Shown here in pieces: positions 1-52,001 of a stretch of 60,000 nucleotides of DNA. This DNA is from Lytechinus pictus (Eukaryota). Both the position numbers and the translations under genes were made by a program. Each line of letters begins with the position of its first letter. Within the stretch, counting starts at the first letter, position 1. The stretch covers positions 41,232,001 to 41,292,000 of the forward strand of contig NC_087251.1 of the NCBI RefSeq assembly GCF_037042905.1, given 5' to 3'. The notes beneath the pieces are model-generated. The model was given only the letters and a program-made list of their open reading frames with translations. It searched no databases and had not been told where the DNA came from.

Positions 1-77
1 TACATTTCTAACGTTAGTCGTTACTTAGTCTACAAAAATGCAAGCAAAGTTTCATCAATTTCTACAAAGTGTTGATG

Positions 78-623
78 TGTAGTAAATTTGCCATGTACCT
101 GTAGTACCCTATATGTATTAGTTTGTGTATTAGTCTATGTATTGATCTATGTTCATGTATATTAAGTCTGTGTGTGTGCTGTGTGCATGCGAGGAGCGCT
201 CCTGATTGGAGGAGCCTTTATATGCTCCTACGCCTGCTACGTGTGTGCGTTGCACAGCACGTACACAAGCTGGTGCAAAGGAGATTGGATCCAGACACCA
301 CAGAAAGAAGACCCCGAGACGCCATCGAGTGTGGACATGCATCCCAGCTGTTCCCCACAAGGCGCCATGGTCTGTTAGTGTTTATAGAAGCAACATAGAA
401 TTAGTATACCTGTTTATCTACCGTGTGGCATCGTCTGTACAAGTGTCAGGTAAGTATTAGTTGTTGTCACTGTTTTGTACCGTCGGTAACCCATTTGTGT
501 ATTAGTGAGTCCTAACCCTTGTCAGTGTTGTACTTGTAAGTTTAACCACTCGCCATCGTTTATCGCATCGTGTCTGTGCCATCATTAACACACCCTAACA
601 CCACAACTCTCATTTTTACAACA
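78..623 (+). repeat. 5' LTR (546 bp)
   Basis: Starts TGTAGTAAA and ends TTTACAACA (8/9 inverted match). Matches 7493-8038 by eye; ORF-track translations are identical at offset 7415. Contains ATTGG, a TTTATAT TATA-like motif and a CAG|GTAAGT donor at 450. Confidence 0.95.
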
Positions 624-624
624 T

Positions 625-640
625 TGGCGATTGCGAGTTT
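625..640 (+). other. Putative primer-binding site (TGGCGATTGCGAG)
   Basis: TGG lies 1 nt after the 5' LTR end, the canonical PBS position. The cognate tRNA cannot be identified by eye. Confidence 0.6.
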
Positions 641-3600
641 TCGGATCGTCCTGTGCGCCTTTCATTTTCATCATTTCATGTCCGTTCATACTTCATGTTT
701 GCTCATGAAAGTCACTTGTGAGTGATTTTGAAGTGTATAACGAACGGAGAGTGAGTGGGAAGTTTTCCGCTCTCTACCGTTAATTGTAAATTTGCGTGCC
801 GTGATTGCGTGGGTTTACATGCATCTCGCACACATCTTGTTTAAGTTTTATCATTTTTCCGTACATGATATCATTTCTTGTTTGATACAAGTGGATTTTG
901 ATATATATTTGCCATATCTAGGAAATTATTTCATGTCCACTACGTTGCATTTTCATTGCAAAGCACGTGGTATTCTCTGTGCACACCAAAGGTGCACACG
1001 CCCTTCATTGTTTGTTGCACTTGCATTTCTCATCGCATTCTTCGCGAGTCTCTTCTATTGTTTGGCTCGCGATCAAGAATTTTGTTCCTTGCATATTTTT
1101 GCGTCGCTTACCATCTCGTTGCTTTTGTTTGTAAATTCTTTGAAGTCTGCATCTAGGCGAGGATATTTTTAGTCCCCCATTGTCTTTATAAGCTTTCTTT
1201 CAAATTCGGAACATTCACACCACACCACTTCCAAAAAAAAAAGTCGGGTATGATCGAGTATTTGGTGGATTTATTGGATTGGAAAAGTTAATTTGAACTT
1301 GAAATTTTCTCTCGATCCTCAGTAATTATTCCAGATGGTATAAGTTTCCTACAATTTCATATTCTTGCATATCGGGCAGTGCACCAATATTTTGAGGGCG
1401 TAGAGTTGTTCATACATTTCTATAAAATTTCCAGTATATATTTTCTATCGACATTTGGCAAGTGTTTTTTGCAGCCAGTTCTGTACACATTGAGTGGCAG
1501 AAAGAGTGTTAGAAGTTCTAATACTCCTGGTTGCCGAGTTGAGTAATAGTCTGAATTTACTTCAAATATTTACCCAATGCAGATCGAAATTACACTTGTG
1601 TCGGTGGTACGTTAGAGGTGGGTTTTTCTGAATTTCAGATCTTACCTGTTACTAGAAAATAGGTGGGTTTTCTGAGCTTCGGATCTTACCTGTAACTTGA
1701 AAATATACTCTTGAATTTTGTTCTTAATCAATACACATCTTGTGAATTTTCTTTAAAGCATTTCATTCATCACATCTGATATTGTGATTGTTTCTCTTTA
1801 ATAACTGTGATTAATTGTCATTGTCTTAAATTCAATCTAAAAGTTATTGTTACTCATTGTTGCTAATTGTTCACCCACTCGGTAGAATTGTGTGTGAATA
1901 TATAGACATCTATAAATAATTCCAGTGTCAGACCCGTTGGGACTGGAAAAAATAGACGTCTGAAATATTTATGTAATTAGACTTCTGTCAATACCAGTGT
2001 CAGACTCGTTGGGACTGGAAAAGGGAAGTCTGAATAATTTTATCTTCCCTATCAAATAATTGGTAGTTTGGGCTGGTTGGGTGTAGGCTCCATAATTTTT
2101 TGAAATTGTGTAGTTTTGCAGAGAAACCGGTAGGCTATTTATTTCTTGATAACTTAGATAAATTATTCTCTATGTTCTTCATGTTACATGTTTATATGTC
2201 GATTTGATTCGAAATAAATTGAATCATCACTGTTTGCATAACATCCATGTGCTGATTGTGATTTCCATTGCGTTGGAGATCAAGATTTGCAAGTCAAGAC
2301 TTAAGAGATTATTGCTTTTGACCAAAATTTGACAATCTACCCTCGATCGCCCCGCTCGGCGAATAATATTGAGTCATCACTGTCGATCACGTGACTCCTA
2401 TATTTTTTCACTTGATCGAGAGATTCTCGTTGTAAACACAACAGTCGATCAGAGTTAGAATTTGAAAAATTCTGATTTTATACGATTATCGTGATTGACC
2501 GTTGATTTATTCTAACGATTAGTTCTAAGTAGGAACTCGTAGAAGTTGATTTTGTAATTTGATCGTTCTTTATTAGTTAATTTTAGATCTAACGTCGCGC
2601 GGTTTCCAACCAACACCAGCGCAGCGCACCTCTCCGTCTGGCCCGTAGCTCCAGGCAGGGGGTAACGTTCACGAGCCGGCTATCGTCTCCGTGAAGGCAA
2701 ATTCTGAACGAGTTTTATTTTCGTCAGTTTTTACCGGCAATTTGCTGGATTTACCTGCCAATTGTCTCTTGATTCAATATTTTCGCGAACATAGCTAAAT
2801 TCCTTGTTTCCATATTGTCATATTACTTGTTCGTAGATCTAACCTTAACTTAACTTCACGCCAAGCTTTGTCTGGTGTCAGCCAACGGCAATAGCGTATA
2901 CTATAGCGTCTGCCTATCTGACGTGTGGGTGTTGTACTGTAGGCAGCACTATCACTACTTTGTCTTTGCATTGTTTGAGCTCAATTCGGCTCTTACTGGG
3001 AATTAAAATAATTTATTTGAATTCCTTTAACCTCTTGAATTTGAGCTTATCAGCTGAGTTAGAGCTGTGAATTGGTTTTTTACCTAAAATATATATAAGA
3101 TCTTTGTCAGTTTGTGATAATTCCGATTTTTGTAAAACTAGCTCGACGACGAATTTAGCCATAAAAATATTGGATCAGAATAATCCCATAGTGAGAATTT
3201 GATTTCAAATATCTTCATTATAGTTGGGCATTTTTCCCTTGCAGATAATCTTGTTAATCTCTCAGGTGTTTGTAATTTCCTGACCGTGTATACCTGGAGC
3301 CAACAAGTGCAATTGTTTGCTTTGCCTTTTGACTCGGTGTACAACTGGTTTGAACGAGGACTTGAATTTAATTTCAGGCCCTTAGTTCTTTGTAGGAAAT
3401 TTTTCTTGGAGGTTATCCTGGATTGTCTTTCTGTCTGTTTGAAAATCAGGTTTTCTTAGTTGATAATTTTTAACAAGCATTGTTAGATCAGGAATTTTTC
3501 TTTGGAATAATTCTTGCTTTTAAATTTAAATCCTATATGAGAGATTTAATTTCTATATTTTTAAAAGAAAGATTGTTCTCAAGGGAATTAGGTAAAAAAG

Positions 3601-4521
3601 TTCTGAATTAAATTTTAATAAGGTTCTTGAAAATACTTATTTTAATTCAATCAACTCTTGATTCTGATTTTAAGTGAAAAGTACAGATACTATTGATCTT
3701 TGATATCAGAATAATTGATATCAACATTCTTTGAAATTATTTTTTCATATAGTTGCTCTTGTATATTTGGAGCATCATTCTTGGGCTGAAAATTTGCAAA
3801 TTTATATTCAGGCTCTGGAATTCAATCCTTCAGTGAAATACAAAATTCACTGCTGTCATTTTGCGCAAGTTGATTTCTAAATAGTTAATTATTTTTAGGC
3901 TCATCCACATTCTAAAAAAAGACACAACAAAAAAAAAATAATAATAAATCGGATGTGGGATAAATGTGTGTTTGACACATTTATTTATATATTGCATTCA
4001 TCAGAAATAAACAATTATTATTGAATGCTACTCCTGTAAATCGTTGAGGCTTCGATAAGTTGAATCCTTGTTAGGTTCTTTTAATAGTCGTAGAGTAAGT
4101 AAAACTTATTAACACTTCTGCGATTACTCAGAGTAGTAGAAGTTTGATATTCTATTCTACAAGTGTAGTTTCTGAAACTTGAAGCTGCACTGTACTTTGT
4201 AAATATACTTTCACTGAATACATCCATTGCTACAGGAGTGTGTACATTTATTATTAATATTCAGAGTCAGACGCTTGTTCTTAGCAGTACAAGTATTGCA
4301 GTACTTCACTCTTTCCTTGGCAGTAAGTGTGTTCAGTGACACAAGTATAAACAAACCTAGTTAAGTTCTTTCACTGATCTGCAAGCTTTATTCTGCTAAG
4401 TTTAATACACTGTAGATCATTGAATAAATGAAAGTATCATTTAAAATATGTTTAAGAATATGCCTTTGAATCACCAAGGTGATCATCAATAATACTTTCC
4501 TGAATTTATCTGGAATTCATA

Positions 4522-6474
4522 ATGATGCAAAGTGAAATCGCCAGAGCAAGACAAGGATTAGTTGAAGACATTATAGACAGTCGTAATACTAGTAGGGGAT
4601 AGTTATATGAGTATTCACTGGCAAATAATCTGTACAAGCTTGGTTATCCAAGAAATTTTGTAGATGAATTTGTTTATGAGAGGTTTGATTGTTCAAGGAT
4701 ACATTATTTATCTGATCTCGATTTAACAGATCTTGTATATAAATGTGCTGATAAATGCCAATATAAATATGCTGAACCCAATACTGGTAGAAAGCCTCAG
4801 GCTGATAATTTGAGTACTGATGCATCTTATCATTCTAGGACTGATCATCATGAAGATTGTTCAAGGAATTTTGGTCATATTTCATATGGTTCTTCCAAGG
4901 TTGATCAGGATAGATATCATTCACAATATACTGATCACTCTAGATATGCTCCTGGTACTCCCTATACTAGTGAGGATTCCAAACATTTACATTCATCTTA
5001 TACTCAATGTGAACCCAGATCAAACAGCAGGGTTCAGAGTACAAATAAACATGATTCTTATCCACAATCTTCCTGTCATACTTCTAATGATCATTCCAAA
5101 GATGATGCTTATATAGCAATGATGATGCACTGTATGGCTGTTCAAATGAAATCATTGTCAGAAGAACTGAAATCATCTCGGCATTCATCTACTCTAGATT
5201 CAAGGCTTCCGTCCTTAGATCGAGGTTGCGATGCCCTGAGATCTTATTCTCGTGGGTGTACTGGTCCGCGAGTGTCCTCGTTGCCCAAGTACGTGACCTT
5301 CGATGGTAGAGGATGTTGGCACACTTTTATACGTAATTTCCAGCTATATTCGGAAGATCGTGGTTGGGGTCAAGCCCAACAGCTCAATGAACTTTGCTTT
5401 TGTCTTGAGGGAAGCGCAATCAAATATTTTGCATCAATTATTGTTTCTTCCAAGCTAAACATTCCCTACACAGATGTTATCAAGAAGCTTGAGCAAAGAT
5501 TTGCTTCCAAAGAATTTCCTGTCGCACAATTGCAATTTGATTTTGCGCAGCAGGCAACAACCGAAACAAAGGGGGAATGGGCCGACCGTGTCCTATCCTA
5601 CGCTTCACGCGTCTTTGACGGATTGCCTGAGGAGATTTTTGAGAGGCAAATAGTGCAAAAGTTTTGTCAGGGTTTATTAGACCATGAAGCGGGAAAATAC
5701 GCTATCAAATCACGTCCTCGGAATCTTGATGATGCCATTTACTTAGTTCGGTGGTTTCAGCATCGGCTAAAGTATGCAAGACAAAGGTCTTACGATACTG
5801 TCGAGGAGGATCCCAGAGTTAACCGTATGGGTGTTTCCGGGCATGCCTCTAATGCTCAGCAGTCCTCCGGTCAGAACAGTCTGGAGGACCGAGTGCCCAA
5901 TCTGGAGAAGAAGGTTGATATTCAATCTGCTCCAGGGGCACAGATGAAGTCCTTCCAGTCCTCAGTCCAGGGATCGGTAACTGCTGTCCAAGAGCAGAAT
6001 AGGCATACACATTCGACTCCTTCGACAGAAGACAATGAATCCCAGTTGTCTTGTCGTGATGTTTGTTTTGCATGCAACAAATCTGGACACTTTAAGAGGA
6101 ACTGTCCAGAATGTTTAGCAGTAAAACATGTAGATATCTTAAGTGTAGATGATGTAACTGTAAATACCACATGTGTAGACGATGTAACTGTAGATACTAC
6201 ATGTGTAAGTGATGTTACAGTAAATACCATAGGTATAGATAATGTAACTCTTGTAACTGTATCAGAGGACAGTCGAGCCTCTACTGAGGATATCAAGCAT
6301 GGGCAGAGTTATCTTGTGCAAATGCTTTGGGGAAGTACCCCTCCTAAGCTGTCCATCCTTGAATTCCTCAGTTCTCTTCTCTGGTGGAACCAGAGGTATG
6401 TCTGTAGTTTAAGTAACGGCCAATTCCATTTATCTTGTCCGTGGCTCCTTCCTCCCTGGCCACCACCCCAATAA
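4522..6474 (+). CDS. gag: Retrotransposon Gag (capsid + CCHC zinc knuckle); frame has one in-frame TAG at 4600-4602, next in-frame ATG at 5119
   Basis: Capsid-like motifs FDGRGCWHTFIRNF, LEGSAIKYF, LEQRF, KFCQGL and RPRNLDDA; knuckle CFACNKSGHFKRNC. Manual translation shows the frame open from 4603 to 6474 and from ATG 4522 to 4599. Confidence 0.85.
6145..6264 (+). repeat. 30-bp in-frame tandem repeat x4 in gag (VDDVTVNTTC-like)
   Basis: Unit GTAGATGATGTAACTGTAAATACCACATGT with progressively diverged copies. Confidence 0.85.
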
Positions 6475-7478
6475 TGGAGTAGTATCTCCTTGATCAGTTG
6501 CTGAAAGTCCTGCAATTGAAATTTCTGTTGTTATACATTGTAATTCCTTTAATAGTCACTGAAGGTGAAGGCACACCTCTTATTTTCAATAGCTTTTACC
6601 TCTTCAGGTGACATATGAATTAATAGGTGCAAACACGGTTTATGCAATAGCTCTTTTATACTACATAAGATATATAGATATTTCAACCATAGATCCTTTA
6701 CCTTGTTTGCAAAGGCTTTATAAACAACCCTGGAAATATTGTCATACAGGATGTTGAAATAGTAGTAGTTTTTTCTCAAGAGAAAATACTATGTATGTAT
6801 GTCAAGTCCAGGTTGTTATATCTATTTGCACCCGATCTGGTTGAATTATCCTTACATTACATATGTTTTTAAGAGCTCAAACATATTACCAATCATATAT
6901 CATATTTGTAAAGGTCACATTGTACAGGCCTATATTAATTGGTAATAGAGCTCCAGCCAAATTGGCTTTATTCCATTGTCATTATTTTAATAGTACAATA
7001 TACAACTTAATATAAAGCACTGACCAAGAGTCAACTTTAAGAATCTATGTCAAGTAGTGCACTTTGAAGGATGAACATACAATGTACCTTCTTTCAGTCA
7101 TTCAGACTTGCACTAAAATAAGAAGATAACCTTTGTATCAATACATAGACAAGACTGGGCCAGCCTGGCCAGATTAATACTTACCATTAACTTGTTCTTG
7201 TTTCTCCAAGGGTACATTTGCTGGTCTCAAGTGATGAGATGTTTAATTTTGCTGGACCAGCAATCTTTTTAATGAACAAGTTAAGAATAGTTCATATCCT
7301 CAGATCACACTTTTTGTGTATTTGAGGTATTTTATTGATGTCATGTATTTAATCAGTTTTAATCATATAGGCATATATTACATTCTTCTGTCAGAGTTCT
7401 TCATATATCTGTTTTTATCTATTGAGATTGCACAATATAGCCAATTCATGGATTTGTCAATATATGTCGCAATCTGAT

Positions 7479-7492
7479 GGAACCGGGAGGAA
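7479..7492 (+). other. Polypurine tract-like site
   Basis: GGAACCGGGAGGAA immediately precedes the TGT start of the 3' LTR. Confidence 0.7.
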
Positions 7493-8038
7493 TGTAGTAA
7501 ATTTGCCATGTACCTGTAGTACCCTATATGTATTAGTTTGTGTATTAGTCTATGTATTGATCTATGTTCATGTATATTAAGTCTGTGTGTGTGCTGTGTG
7601 CATGCGAGGAGCGCTCCTGATTGGAGGAGCCTTTATATGCTCCTACGCCTGCTACGTGTGTGCGTTGCACAGCACGTACACAAGCTGGTGCAAAGGAGAT
7701 TGGATCCAGACACCACAGAAAGAAGACCCCGAGACGCCATCGAGTGTGGACATGCATCCCAGCTGTTCCCCACAAGGCGCCATGGTCTGTTAGTGTTTAT
7801 AGAAGCAACATAGAATTAGTATACCTGTTTATCTACCGTGTGGCATCGTCTGTACAAGTGTCAGGTAAGTATTAGTTGTTGTCACTGTTTTGTACCGTCG
7901 GTAACCCATTTGTGTATTAGTGAGTCCTAACCCTTGTCAGTGTTGTACTTGTAAGTTTAACCACTCGCCATCGTTTATCGCATCGTGTCTGTGCCATCAT
8001 TAACACACCCTAACACCACAACTCTCATTTTTACAACA
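7493..8038 (+). repeat. 3' LTR (546 bp)
   Basis: Copy of 78-623, followed by the GATG TSD. Confidence 0.95.
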
Positions 8039-10564
8039 GATGTTAGGCAATTCTTATAGAGAACAAAAAAAGATTATTACAACTTTTATATAGTTGTAAT
8101 CATCTTCTATTTTTTCTCTATATATACGGTAGATAGGGTCTAGTGAGTGATTGTATTACCGACCGGCCTTGTATTACCAAACGCGCGCATCATACGCATC
8201 AGAAAATAATTTTATACGCTCAAAATTTTGCAACATCCAAAGAGAACTTGAAGTTGAATAGAAACTTTTAGAAAGATGATGAAAAATTGTCAAAAACACA
8301 TTTTCAAAGTCTTAATATTCTAAAAATATGGTCAAAATAGCTCGACATCAGTGATTTTGTTGTTTTCTCAACTTTTCCCATAGAAAACACACGTTCGGTA
8401 ATACGATACCTTTTTCAAGTGACCAAAATGTTTCACATGCGAAGAGGGGTCCGATTGGAAGCTAATATCGTAAAAAGGAAAAACGATTTCGGCCAAATTT
8501 TTACATATTTATATTTTGTAGGTAATTGTGTACCATATTTTTCGGAATATAAACCGCGGACATGTATTAACCGCACCCCAAAATCGGGAGGCTAAAAAAT
8601 AAAAAAAAAGAATTGGCAAACCGAATTTGACGGCAAATTGGACAAGTCAATTTCACTGAAAATCTGTGAAAGGTCAAAAGATATATTACTAATTTTTGTA
8701 TTAAAAAAAATGGTTACCTCATTCTTTAACTTTATTTTTCAAAGAATATGAATTATTCCTTTGTAGAATAAAGAAAAAAAACATGAAATGGCAGCATTGT
8801 ATATCAAACTTATAGTGTAAAAAGGGAATTAAAAAAAAATATATTGAGAGAAAAAGGAGAGAAATAAAGAATAAAGGACATTATTTATTGCCTTTTTAAT
8901 AACCGATTACGTGTACATGCCTATTGAAGAGCATTTTCCATGCATTTTTAGATGAAAAAAAGTTTTCATCACAAAACAATCAGATTTTTTAATAGGAAAA
9001 CATTAAATTAATAGTAATTAAATAAATAATATAAAACAACCTTTACAAAGAAGATTTTTCAAAGAAAACTTCGCAAAATATACTTTCTATTTTTAGTAAC
9101 CAACAAACATTTATACATTGAATATTGTATATACTTCTTGGTTGGTGCATTGTTATACTTACCGAAGAAGCATAGGTAGTCAGTTTACTGATGAAATATT
9201 GTTGTTTCTTTGGATAAACCGCACCCTTTTTTTTCAAGATTTTTTTTTTTTTTTCCTGAAAAAAAAAGAAAAGGTATTTGTGGTAAAAGTTTGGTGAATT
9301 ATATGAGAATGTGTTTGATATGTCATGATTGAATTCATAAAAAGTGTTCAGTAATACGATCCACTACCATACTATACCCTATTTTGTTCTCTATACGGTA
9401 CTATAAAGTGTAATCCAAAGACAAAAAACAAATGCTTCAAAATAAGACTGTCCAGATCCAGACACCCGACCCGGTCCCCCCCCCCCCATCCTACACGAAA
9501 CCACGATTTGGCCGATAACAGTTCATTGCTTAAATCATCTCAATCCGTATTCTGAAAATTTTCCTAATTCTTAATAGGACGTCCCCTATTTTTTTTTCTG
9601 ACACCCATATTTGATCATGAACCAATAATTAATTTTTTTGATATGCTTAGGTCAACCAATAGAAGCGCCTCTTCTGAAAAAATAATGAAGCGGCATGAGG
9701 CCTGTATTAATCTTCAAGTGTGAAGGACACAGGTCTACCCTGAAGAAGAAGTAGAGGCGTAATTTCCCTTGCGCCCCGGACGCTTATTCTTGTGCGCTAC
9801 TGTGCTAAAATAAATCAGTATTCTGAAAATTGTCTTATCTTTGTATTGTAAGGACGTCCCGTCTCTACTGACACGCCCAATTATCATCGAACAATAATTC
9901 AAGTTACATGTGTGTGTCTGGGTCAACCAACTCTAAATAGGAGTGCCTCTTCTGTAAAAACATTAAGCGCATTATTCAAAGGTTCGAAGCTTTATTTTCC
10001 CTTGCGCCTCAGACCCTTATGCTTGTCTGCGCTTTGTGACGAAAATTCATGTGACTGTTCTCCCAGGCAAATTTTCTTTGAAAACATTCATCTCCAATGA
10101 GATCTTTAAATTTCTGAAAAGTCTTCAAATCCGTTCTGTAATATCTCTAGAAATAAATTTCTTCTTTTATAAAACAAGGGCTGATCTTGCGGGATGCCGC
10201 AAAATATTGTTGTTCACCGAAAATATGTCATACAACATCAAGTTACAAGAGCCCGGCACCACCTACTGTAAACACTGTTTATTTGCGGGATTAATTTTTC
10301 GGGCTTGGCGGCTTCAAAACATATTGGAAGGTTCTTGATTTCGCGCTGCACACTCCATAATCTCAAAGTCACTTCCTTCTTCCCCATCTGTGCATGGTTT
10401 TAATTAACATTTCAGCAACAAAATTGTATTTTCTGATCATAATTTCTGCTCTAAAGCGGCGTAATTCAGCATTGTTTTGATGTAATCATAAACTTTTGTG
10501 ACATTTAGCGCAACTTTTCTTTGCGGGACAGACAACGTCAATGTTGACAACGACGCCGCCGTCA

Positions 10565-11292
10565 GAAAACTGAACATCCTGTCTTACATGTAGTTTCAGG
10601 TCACATGACCAAGGTCAAAGGTCATTTAGGGTCAATGAACTTAGACCATGTTGGGGGAATCAATATCGAAATCTTAACCAAGTTTTTGAAATGTTGTCAT
10701 AACTTGGAAATTATATGGACTTAGTTTATGAAACTTAGACATAAGGGTAACAGTGTATCACTGAATATCCCTGATCATCCTGTGCAAGTTTCAGGTCACA
10801 TGATCAAGGTCAAAAGTAATTTAGGGTCAACAAACTTTGATAATGTTCGGGGTATTTGTGGAATTGTCATAACTTTAAAAGTTTATATATCTAGTTCATG
10901 AAACTTGGACATAAGAGTAACCATGTATGAGGTATTATTGAATATCCTGTGCGCATTTCAGGTATCATGACCAAGATTTAAGGTCAATGAACTTTGGCCG
11001 TGTTGGGGGTATTTGTTGAATTGGCATCATAACTTAAAAAGTTTATAGATCTACACATGTAGTTCATGAAACATAGACAAAAGGGTGATCAAGTATGAAT
11101 GATTGTTTTGCACATGTCTTAGGTCACATGATCATGGTCAAAGGTCATGTTGGGTCAATGGACATAGTATTTTATTATCATATGAGTGTTTTCTTTTGTG
11201 AATAATTGTTCAATAGCTGTTTTCAAAGTCAGCACTGTGCTCTATTGAATCGCGTAATTCAGGCGAGACTGCCAAAGGCATTCCACCTGTTA
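10565..11292. repeat. Interspersed element with internal tandem array (GGTCACATGACCAAGGTCAAAGGTCA units), Helentron/HINE-like
   Basis: About four ~170-190-bp diverged units, each with TTCAGGTCACATGA(C/T)CAAGGTCAA...GGGTCAATGAACTT. Family assignment is from general resemblance only; boundaries approximate. Confidence 0.55.
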
Positions 11293-50595: not shown

Positions 50596-50894
50596 GTAAG
50601 TAATGATTCTTTATCAGCTGCACTATCGTACCCCCTAATGAAAATGAAGTAATGCAATGGGTTGGGGGTTTTTTGTGGGGGGGGGGTGTAACATGACTAC
50701 ATGTATGTGTCTCATTTCAGCATCATACTTCCTCAGCACTTTCTACTCATGACCATCATATATTGTAACACAAGTTACAATTTGCCAGGAACATTTTTAT
50801 AGACAGTTCAGGGTCCTATTTCTTAATGTACCTGCCAAGGAATACTATTCCAGGCAATTAAATTGATTGGTTTTGATTTCTTTGATTTTTACAG

Positions 50895-52001
50895 CAAACG
50901 TCACTGAAGGATGAATCAAATGGAAGTGGGCTGAACGGTCATAGTTCCAGCGGGATGAACAGTGACCAGGAGAAGCAGGAAAAGATATCCCAGGCCACCT
51001 TTGATAAAGTCCTGATTGATGCTAACCAGCGGAGGCACATCCGAAATAAGGCCAGGAACACGGGCACCGACTCTGGTTCGGACTCAAGCTCCGGGAACAT
51101 GTGCTTGGACATGACGATGACAAGTCACATGACTGATGTAGTTGGTACTTCACAAAAGTTGGACAGTACAACCTCTGAATCCTCAGGCATTGGAGCCAAC
51201 TACATGTCGTCAGTTCAGTGTGATTTCCAGTTGCCCCGATCTACAATCATGGCTGGCGGTGTCACTAACAGTAGCACTGGTGTGTCAACCATGTACAATA
51301 GCCAAGGAAATAAAGTCTCTGACGAGAGCAAACAAGAAAGTATGTCCAGTGGCAGCAGTGGAGCGCGTAAGAGACATGTCCCATGGTCAATAGCACGCTA
51401 TTATTATCAAACAAAACGACCTCCACTTTCCCAAGATGTGTCAGTAGATGGTGATGAAGGTAACATAGAAATGAATAATTTACCAAGCAGGCGTATTGGA
51501 CAACCTGAGAGGAAGCGGAAGCGGTTTCATAGGACTTTCACAGCACTAAGACAATGTGGCCTTTTAGATCTCACAATGCAAACTGCTTCTTTGATGGAGC
51601 AAAACTCAAAGCTCCAGAAGCAGCTTGGTGAGCTGCACCGTCAGGCGCACCTTATGTACCATACTGTGAGTCATTTTTCTAAAATTCAACCAAATGTATT
51701 AGGTAGTCCAGAAACACAGAAAGTCATGGACGGACTAAAAGCAATGATGGACAGAAACCCTGTGGAGGACATCGATATGTCTTTGTTTGAATCCTTGTCA
51801 GGTTCAAGAGACTCTCCTGCTGTGGAGAGTGGGACATTTACTATGAGTAATCAGATTCCATCCGTCTCTGTTGAATCCTCGGAGAGATCTGGTGCATTGA
51901 GGATACCTGGCCACCAAGGCCCAAGAAACAGTTCTGACAGTGCCATTCAATCATCAATCAATGCATCAACATTCTCACCAAGTGAAAAATCGGGACAGTA
52001 G
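50895..52001 (+). CDS. CIPC: CLOCK-interacting pacemaker (CIPC)-like protein, terminal coding exon with CiPC motif
   Basis: TTTTTACAG acceptor in frame with the 348-aa ORF. KRKRFHRTFTALRQCGLLDLTMQTASLMEQNSKLQKQLGELHRQ resembles the vertebrate CIPC C-terminal motif ([30 protein letters not shown]..., from memory). Confidence 0.8.
   Translation, partial: QTSLKDESNGSGLNGHSSSGMNSDQEKQEKISQATFDKVLIDANQRRHIRNKARNTGTDSGSDSSSGNMCLDMTMTSHMTDVVGTSQKLDSTTSESSGIGANYMSSVQCDFQLPRSTIMAGGVTNSSTGVSTMYNSQGNKVSDESKQESMSSGSSGARKRHVPWSIARYYYQTKRPPLSQDVSVDGDEGNIEMNNLPSRRIGQPERKRKRFHRTFTALRQCGLLDLTMQTASLMEQNSKLQKQLGELHRQAHLMYHTVSHFSKIQPNVLGSPETQKVMDGLKAMMDRNPVEDIDMSLFESLSGSRDSPAVESGTFTMSNQIPSVSVESSERSGALRIPGHQGPRNSSDSAIQSSINASTFSPSEKSGQ

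What the first reader, a model, noticed from the sequence alone, without database searches (positions are those of the whole stretch)
78..8038. Very young ~8-kb gag-only LTR element with no pol: a parasitic retroelement that brings its own capsid
Seen: LTRs identical by eye, intact GATG TSD, PBS- and PPT-like sites, one Gag ORF, ~1 kb non-coding 3' region, and no RT/RNaseH/integrase/protease frame in 8 kb. Known: LTRs are identical at insertion, so the insertion is recent; gag-only TR-GAG elements are described mainly in plants. Inference: it was mobilised in trans by an autonomous gypsy helper while keeping its own gag. It may be an animal gag-only family rather than a one-off deletion.
Basis: partly seen in the sequence, partly recalled or inferred. 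Interest (0 to 1): 0.8.

Follow-up and report, generated by a model that had tools for sequence, protein, structure and literature searches.

The report
Sea-urchin gag-only Gypsy retrotransposon family
This freshly inserted sea-urchin jumping gene carries a capsid-type gene (with an early stop in this copy) and no copying enzymes, so it likely borrows them from a complete relative, a way of life already known from plants and zebrafish.

Summary
The anatomy is confirmed: 546-bp LTRs identical at 546 of 546 sites, a 4-bp GATG duplication, one Ty3/gypsy Gag with a predicted PNMA2/Arc/Ty3-type capsid fold, and no detectable pol. It is a family, not a one-off deletion. Contigs of other samples and of another organism label cover the whole pol-less layout, and the listed gag indels keep the frame (5 of 5, against 1 of 7 in the leader). 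Half the element is a 3.9-kb non-coding leader. This copy's gag has a stop at codon 27 that 3 of 3 other runs lack, so 'brings its own capsid' fits the family but is doubtful for this copy. The helper was not found (no genome held); autonomous relatives are only 30-48% identical. Gag-only elements are known in animals (zebrafish Bik-1/2), and this scan noted such elements in other genomes. Two leads remain: a GT..AG joint from the LTR into gag (2 of 8 runs, one study, RNA not on record) and a C-terminal PWPPP motif on Gags from at least three branches. New member of a known kind.

The parts
74..77 (+). Target-site duplication, left copy (GATG)
78..623 (+). 5' LTR, 546 bp, TG...CA
   Evidence: identical to 7493-8038 at 546 of 546
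217..223 (+). TATA-like box; a start near 245 is inferred
   Evidence: sequence; sense RNA depth is higher over 288-577 than upstream
272..273 (+). Weak candidate donor of the 271->4913 GT..AG joint
   Evidence: contigs of X1 and X2; letters between not known
449..455 (+). Splice donor CAG|GTAAGT inside the LTR, used by family LTRs
   Evidence: 7 RNA reads (X21) and 21 (X22) leave the LTR after 449; 3 contigs of X6 after 450
625..637 (+). PBS-like site; primer tRNA not identified
   Evidence: sequence; no self-priming match above chance
624..4521 (+). 3.9-kb non-coding leader with 22 ATGs, short internal duplications and an A-rich tract with AATAAA near 3915-3948
4522..6474 (+). gag, interrupted in this copy by a stop at 4600-4602; open from 4603; next in-frame Met at 5119 (451 aa to the end)
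5275..5784 (+). Capsid (CA) domain
   Evidence: 10-residue blocks at pLDDT 88-98; best folds PNMA2, Arc, dArc1, Ty3 capsids
6061..6111 (+). CCHC zinc knuckle (nucleocapsid)
   Evidence: PF00098, E 4e-5
6112..6474 (+). 120-aa tail with 3.6 copies of a 30-bp repeat, ending CPWLLPPWPPPQ, where relatives have the gag/pol junction
6475..7492 (+). 1018-bp 3' non-coding region ending in the polypurine tract (7479-7492)
7493..8038 (+). 3' LTR
8039..8042 (+). Target-site duplication, right copy (GATG)

Best explanation
This is a recent insertion of a multicopy, pol-less Ty3/gypsy family of a sea urchin whose Gag is predicted to fold into a capsid, and it likely moves by borrowing protease, reverse transcriptase and integrase from an autonomous element of the same Gag lineage. 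Shown: the LTR/TSD anatomy, no detectable pol, the same layout in other samples and in another organism label, frame-keeping indels in gag, and sense RNA from family LTRs. Inferred: the full-length RNA is packaged into particles of family and helper Gag with helper Gag-Pol, copied from the PBS and PPT, and integrated by the helper integrase with a 4-bp duplication. Pol was likely lost once, long ago, when a 120-aa tail replaced the frameshift junction. This copy cannot make the full-length Gag (stop at codon 27). It either makes a 451-aa CA-NC form from Met 5119, possibly from a spliced RNA, or it took Gag from a sister copy.
For: Identical LTRs and intact TSD. No pol by Pfam or tblastn with controls. 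The Gag lineage is Ty3/gypsy: L013 has gag, a TTTAAAC heptamer, then PR-RT-RH-IN-PHD; pol matches lie in 6 of 15 related loci. Of 112 relatives with a knuckle, 96 end within 40 aa of it, against 120 aa here, and no slippery heptamer of the searched form lies between knuckle and stop. Family: contigs cover 30 of 30 bins in X2 and in X10 (organism C, DNA by guess), the 3' non-coding part included. In X10 the knuckle and tail (6078-6577) have the highest summed depth outside the LTR. A named paralog at 67% identity has the same tail (P0001). Listed indels: 5 of 5 in gag are 3-nt, 1 of 7 in the leader is a multiple of 3 (Fisher p 0.008; 12 of 100 rows shown). Precedent: Bik-1/2 and TR-GAG.
Against: No helper was found; the closest pol-bearing loci are 30-48% identical in Gag and come from unnamed metagenome records. 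In X10 the summed depth falls from about 930 over the tail to 114-377 behind it, so many tail-bearing copies go on with other sequence, which could include pol; only 24 of 209 loose ends were shown. No second insertion with its own TSD could be read. No contig spans the element. This copy's gag is broken at codon 27. Gag-covering raw RNA reads are few.
Confidence: 0.75

Rival explanations
1. This copy is a Gag-dead passenger: the stop at codon 27 was already in its parent, so it needed both Gag and Pol in trans. This concerns the copy, not the family, and can hold together with the best explanation.
For: The stop is absent from the contigs of 3 of 3 runs that cover it (X1, X5, X8). In 14 of the 40 rows shown, all three contig runs differ from the window at interior sites, while its LTRs are identical. 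Both LTRs share a letter (474/7889) that X1, X5 and X8 lack, so private changes were carried in from a parent. Six out-of-frame ATGs lie between 4914 and Met 5119.
Against: If 14 interior changes arose after insertion, identical LTRs still have probability 0.11. The CA, knuckle and tail are open from Met 5119, and all six upstream frames stop by 5116.
Confidence: 0.45
2. The pol-less copies are derivatives of an autonomous sibling that has the same LTR, leader, gag and tail and carries pol further downstream, so the helper is a close twin.
For: Depth drops behind the tail in X10, and X6 shows another 3' form (joint 6508->7184).
Against: The tail has no slippery site of the searched form. The one alternative 3' form seen rejoins the element at 7184 (letters between not known). 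No loose end in 6150-7490 is among those shown.
Confidence: 0.15
3. Gag is kept because the host uses it, as with zebrafish Bik-1/2, and transposition is a by-product.
For: Frame-keeping indels across organism labels; family LTRs are transcribed and spliced; precedent (PMC12067270).
Against: Selection on a mobile family's Gag explains the same pattern; this copy is broken; no host phenotype or fixed locus is shown.
Confidence: 0.07
4. A unique deletion of pol after insertion, or LTR identity made by assembly collapse.
For: The reads behind the assembly were not available to test collapse.
Against: Contigs from other samples run through tail, 3' region and into the LTR (X1 6895-7522); organism C has the 3' region; P0001 has the tail at 67% identity.
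Confidence: 0.04

Closest known systems
Zebrafish BHIKHARI Bik-1 and Bik-2 (PMC12067270; passages and section 5 read)
   Same: Animal LTR elements with one long Gag ORF (617 aa in Bik-1), no pol in any copy, near-identical young copies, precise TSDs, helper inferred but not found.
   Different: Bik elements are relatives of lokiretroviruses with a foamy-like Gag and a shown developmental role. This one is a Ty3/gypsy Gag with a CCHC knuckle in a sea urchin, and no host role is shown.
TR-GAG of plants (Chaparro et al. 2015, PMC4350172, abstract and Discussion read; transposition shown in PMC8704663, passages)
   Same: LTRs, PBS, PPT, TSD, a single Gag ORF, no pol, movement in trans.
   Different: TR-GAGs are generally under 4 kb with 5-bp TSDs and were described in plants and one alga. 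This element is 7961 bp with a 4-bp TSD and a 3.9-kb leader.
Autonomous HhH-Gag Ty3/gypsy lineage of marine invertebrates (L013, L003; Mercenaria P0113, Mytilus P0057)
   Same: Homologous CA-coiled-coil-CCHC Gag (30-48% over the core).
   Different: These have an N-terminal helix-hairpin-helix, a short Gag end, then PR-RT-RH-IN(-PHD); L003 and L013 also have a TatD ORF. The element has no significant HhH match, no pol and no TatD. I could not tie the lineage to a named clade of PMC6238403 (passages only).
Non-autonomous Troyka elements of sea urchins (PMC12440569, two passages) and mammalian MaLR (PMC6466679, passages)
   Same: Non-autonomous animal LTR elements; 62 of 70 non-autonomous Troykas are from sea urchins.
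   Different: Troyka has CG-type ends, not TG...CA. That MaLR carries a gag-like ORF is recalled; the passages seen say only that it is non-autonomous with traces of retroviral homology.

Membership tests
LTR retrotransposon | Terminal direct repeats with TG...CA ends and a TSD | tested here: met
LTR retrotransposon | PBS complementary to a tRNA 3' end | tested here: inconclusive
   TGG one base after the LTR; no host tRNA gene on hand; self-priming not above chance
LTR retrotransposon | Polypurine tract next to the 3' LTR | tested here: met
   12 of 14 purines at 7479-7492
Ty3/gypsy | Pol order PR-RT-RH-IN and RT phylogeny | not testable with these tools
   The element has no pol; Gag relatives L013 and L003 have this order
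Ty3/gypsy | Gag with a Ty3/Arc-type capsid domain | tested here: met
   predicted fold matches PNMA2 (E 6e-5), Arc, dArc1 and Ty3 capsids
TR-GAG | Single Gag ORF, no pol | tested here: met
   gag interrupted at codon 27 in this copy
TR-GAG | Length generally under 4 kb | tested here: not met
   7961 bp
TR-GAG | 5-bp TSD | tested here: not met
   4 bp
TR-GAG | Several copies with different TSDs | tested here: inconclusive
   multicopy by contigs and named paralogs; no second TSD read, no genome held
BHIKHARI / lokiretrovirus | Foamy-like Gag of the lokiretrovirus clade | tested here: not met
   nearest sequences and folds are Ty3/gypsy
Troyka | CG-type termini | tested here: not met
   TG...CA (Troyka ends from passage)
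Tf1-type self-priming elements | PBS pairs with the element's own LTR RNA | tested here: not met
   longest pairing 9 bases, mostly G-U; 526 of 1000 shuffles reach 9 or more; listed in-LTR splice joints give at most 5

The most novel reading that the evidence does not exclude
Pol-less satellites of this marine gypsy lineage are a recurrent, specialised design. On at least three separate branches the Gag has a long tail carrying a PWPPP motif (CPW-L/V-LPPWPPP in most) in place of the frameshift into pol, and the motif serves to engage the helper's particle or a host proline-binding factor. The sea-urchin family also makes its Gag from a spliced subgenomic RNA that drops the PBS and the 3.9-kb leader, separating mRNA from packaged genome as retroviruses do.
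Probability: 0.2. Interest if true: 0.6.

Novelty: new member of a known kind. Interest (0 to 1): 0.3.

Why it matters
It adds an echinoderm case to a known way of life: a retroelement that keeps gag and borrows pol. It is multicopy, recently active and shared across organism labels, in a sea-urchin genus used for embryo work. There one could ask whether such a Gag acts for its own RNA, for the helper or for the host, the question that the zebrafish Bik work raised. The shared tail motif, if it proves tied to pol loss, would be a sequence marker for satellite Gags.

Tried and rejected
No genome is held, so copies, TSDs and helper could not be counted. The search among longer proteins for a Gag-Pol found none among 374 candidates; this is weak, since gag and pol are separate frames in this lineage. 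Rfam: 0 matches in 1-8600. ARAGORN: no tRNA in the window or 15 loci. The U5-PBS region folds no better than shuffles (z -1.28). Self-priming and splice-built priming, suggested by notes on other elements of this genome, were not supported. An HhH remnant at the Gag start is not significant: hhalign probability 0.3, and 13 of 300 shuffles score as well on a profile of 39 N-termini. L009's 3.1-kb repeat looked like giant LTRs round a gag, but it is a duplication that holds RNase H remnants. The tail does not align with P0029 by BLASTP. One origin for the PWPPP Gags is rejected (AU p 0.0019; 26 of 84 rows; one row without the motif held in the group, which was drawn after the first tree was seen); the test on all 84 rows did not finish. 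ESM Atlas: no usable hit for the tail, only scores under 0.8 for P0056. Viral and prokaryote collections gave no related locus. No RNA holder was listed on record. The exon joined to the 449 donor was not found in the window. Paper searches for a description of this family listed none by title or abstract start; Repbase, Dfam and subscription journals were not searched, and no supplements were opened, so a library entry may exist.
Full report
Observation. The LTRs are 78-623 and 7493-8038, begin TG, end CA, and are identical at 546 of 546 sites; GATG flanks both ends. The 95% upper bound on LTR divergence is 0.0055. At assumed rates of 1e-8 to 2e-9 per site per year that is 0.27 to 1.4 million years, with a best estimate near zero (rates not measured). 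A PBS-like site starts one base after the 5' LTR and a purine tract abuts the 3' LTR. The internal region is a 3898-bp leader with 22 ATGs, gag, and 1018 bp of 3' non-coding DNA.

No pol. All six frames of 624-7492, read with X at stops, gave only the zinc knuckle with E under 0.1 in Pfam, while the same call found protease, RT and RNase H in relatives L013 and L003 and integrase in L013. Six pol segments from three related loci scored at best 22.7 bits on the element, inside the range of 20 shuffles (20.4-29.3). Remnants decayed beyond these methods cannot be excluded.

The Gag. A model of window 5245-6471 built on 92 sequences is confident over residues 11-180. It matches the PNMA2 capsid (E 6e-5), Arc, dArc1 and the Ty3 capsid. 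The lineage is large, 2207 clusters at 50% identity. Top relatives typically have an N-terminal helix-hairpin-helix and end soon after the knuckle: 96 of the 112 with a knuckle, among 152 proteins examined, end within 40 residues. L013 shows why: a TTTAAAC heptamer there leads into PR-RT-RH-IN-PHD, the Ty3/gypsy order. Pol matches were found in 6 of 15 related loci; most of the others are short. In the window a 120-residue tail stands in that place, with no heptamer of the searched form. The nearest named proteins are two Lytechinus pictus gene models (67% and 86%), and the scan's notes call this genome a sea urchin, so the host is very likely Lytechinus.

This copy is damaged. The frame opens with Met-Met at 4522 and stops at 4600-4602, codon 27. 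The contigs of 3 of 3 runs that cover the site lack this stop (one contig each). The end stop at 6472-6474 is also absent from 5 of 5 contig runs covering it, though 2 of 4 RNA reads in X21 agree with the window; P0001 runs 11 residues further. The next in-frame Met is at 5119 and would give 451 residues with CA, knuckle and tail. Both LTRs share a letter that X1, X5 and X8 lack, so at least some private changes came from the parent; the early stop may have too (not shown). 'Brings its own capsid' is therefore a statement about the family.

Family, not accident. Eight of 23 listed runs were laid. Contigs cover 30 of 30 bins in X1, X2 and X10, 28 in X5 and X6, and 26 in X8; raw RNA reads cover 29 (X21) and 10 (X22); the stretch included the flanks. 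X10 is another organism label and has many diverged contigs over leader, gag and 3' region. An X1 contig runs from 6895 into the 3' LTR with one difference and two gap letters. Of the 12 indel rows shown (of 100), 5 of 5 in gag are 3-nt and 1 of 7 in the leader is a multiple of three (p 0.008), so gag is being kept in frame. P0001 has the same tail at 67% identity, so the tail is old.

Expression. Raw RNA reads lie mostly with the first mate on the minus strand over the LTR, which in most stranded libraries means sense RNA. Seven (X21) and 21 (X22) reads leave the LTR exactly at CAG|GTAAGT (449/450) for sequence outside the element. Many laid reads are under 95% alike or poly-A noise, so these speak for family LTRs, not this locus. 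A joint from 271 to 4913 with GT..AG ends appears in X1 and X2 (depth 8 and 36.5, beside 6.5 and 32.2 for the colinear path) and in 0 of the 6 other runs. GT..AG by chance is under 1% for one joint. The short side has 27 letters, which fits a start near 245, 28 bases after a TATA-like box at 217. But both runs are from one study, their kind is not on record, the letters between are not known, and both sites are weak. If real, this RNA would skip the PBS, the leader and the early stop; all six out-of-frame ATGs behind the joint stop by 5116, just before Met 5119. Spliced Gag mRNAs are known for plant copia elements (PMC5580714, abstract only).

The tail motif. PWPPP occurs in 4 of the 152 proteins (P0001, P0007, P0029, P0056) against 0.017 expected, always in the C-terminal part, and at the very end in P0007, P0056 and their cluster members. 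Three of the four lack the knuckle. All sit in one 18-row branch mixed with ordinary Gags (quick tree, support 96), yet one origin is rejected (with the caveats given under Tried and rejected). Their DNA could not be fetched, so it is not shown that they lack pol. The motif may be convergent, carried by recombination, or a piece of something in this subclade's complete elements that I did not see.

Mechanism. The likely cycle is the standard one for a non-autonomous LTR element: transcription from the 5' LTR, packaging with helper Gag-Pol, copying from PBS and PPT, and integration with a 4-bp duplication. The anatomy and the family are shown; the helper, co-packaging and any role of the element's own Gag are inferred. 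The scan has noted young HhH-Gag and TatD-bearing gypsy elements in this genome; they are candidates for the helper lineage, unchecked here.

Comparison and verdict. It works like a TR-GAG but fails that family's size and TSD marks. The closest animal precedent is zebrafish Bik-1/2, young gag-only families with no pol and an unfound partner. The scan has reported gag-only gypsy elements in other animal genomes; a look-up by this sequence found nothing. I found no description of this family in ten paper searches, but repeat libraries were not searched. It is a real, young, new member of a known kind; interest 0.3, with the spliced RNA and the tail motif as the leads worth following.

Noticed in passing
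L013:1-1506 and L003:6988-9099: Two autonomous relatives carry a TatD DNase ORF (PF01026, E 7e-32 and 7e-38): in L003 behind pol, in L013 running out of the terminal repeat. The scan already noted this clade in the window's genome (e1-7881919); a paper search listed nothing on it by title.
   Followed up: partly
window 6395-6401; P0002: A Lytechinus pictus gene model (XP_054750202) joins the 3' third of this Gag to a G-patch domain protein 4, breaking where the window has a donor-like GAG|GTATGT. It may be an annotation chimera or a real exonised insertion.
   Followed up: no
window 449-455 (LTR): Family LTRs splice from this donor to exons outside the element (7 and 21 RNA reads; 3 contigs in X6), so some copies likely act as promoters for other transcripts. 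The common variant at 452 keeps the donor consensus.
   Followed up: partly
window 67 / 8048: One X1 contig (depth 4) joins the two flanks without the element and with a single 4-base site, but differs at several letters, so it may be a paralogous repeat copy and not the empty allele.
   Followed up: partly
window 1235-1944 versus 3957-4387: In X1 and X2 the leader is 5 to 9 times deeper than the stretch just behind the A-rich tract (37.8 vs 4.1; 98.8 vs 19.6), which may mean a leader-only RNA or leader-only derivatives.
   Followed up: no
window 50886-52001: Host exon matching clock-interacting protein CiPC (PF15800, E 1e-10), 43 kb from the insertion.
   Followed up: no
window 8141-8600 and 10592-11183: A high-copy repeat begins about 100 bp right of the insertion, and a separate tandem-unit repeat lies at 10.6-11.2 kb.
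   Followed up: no
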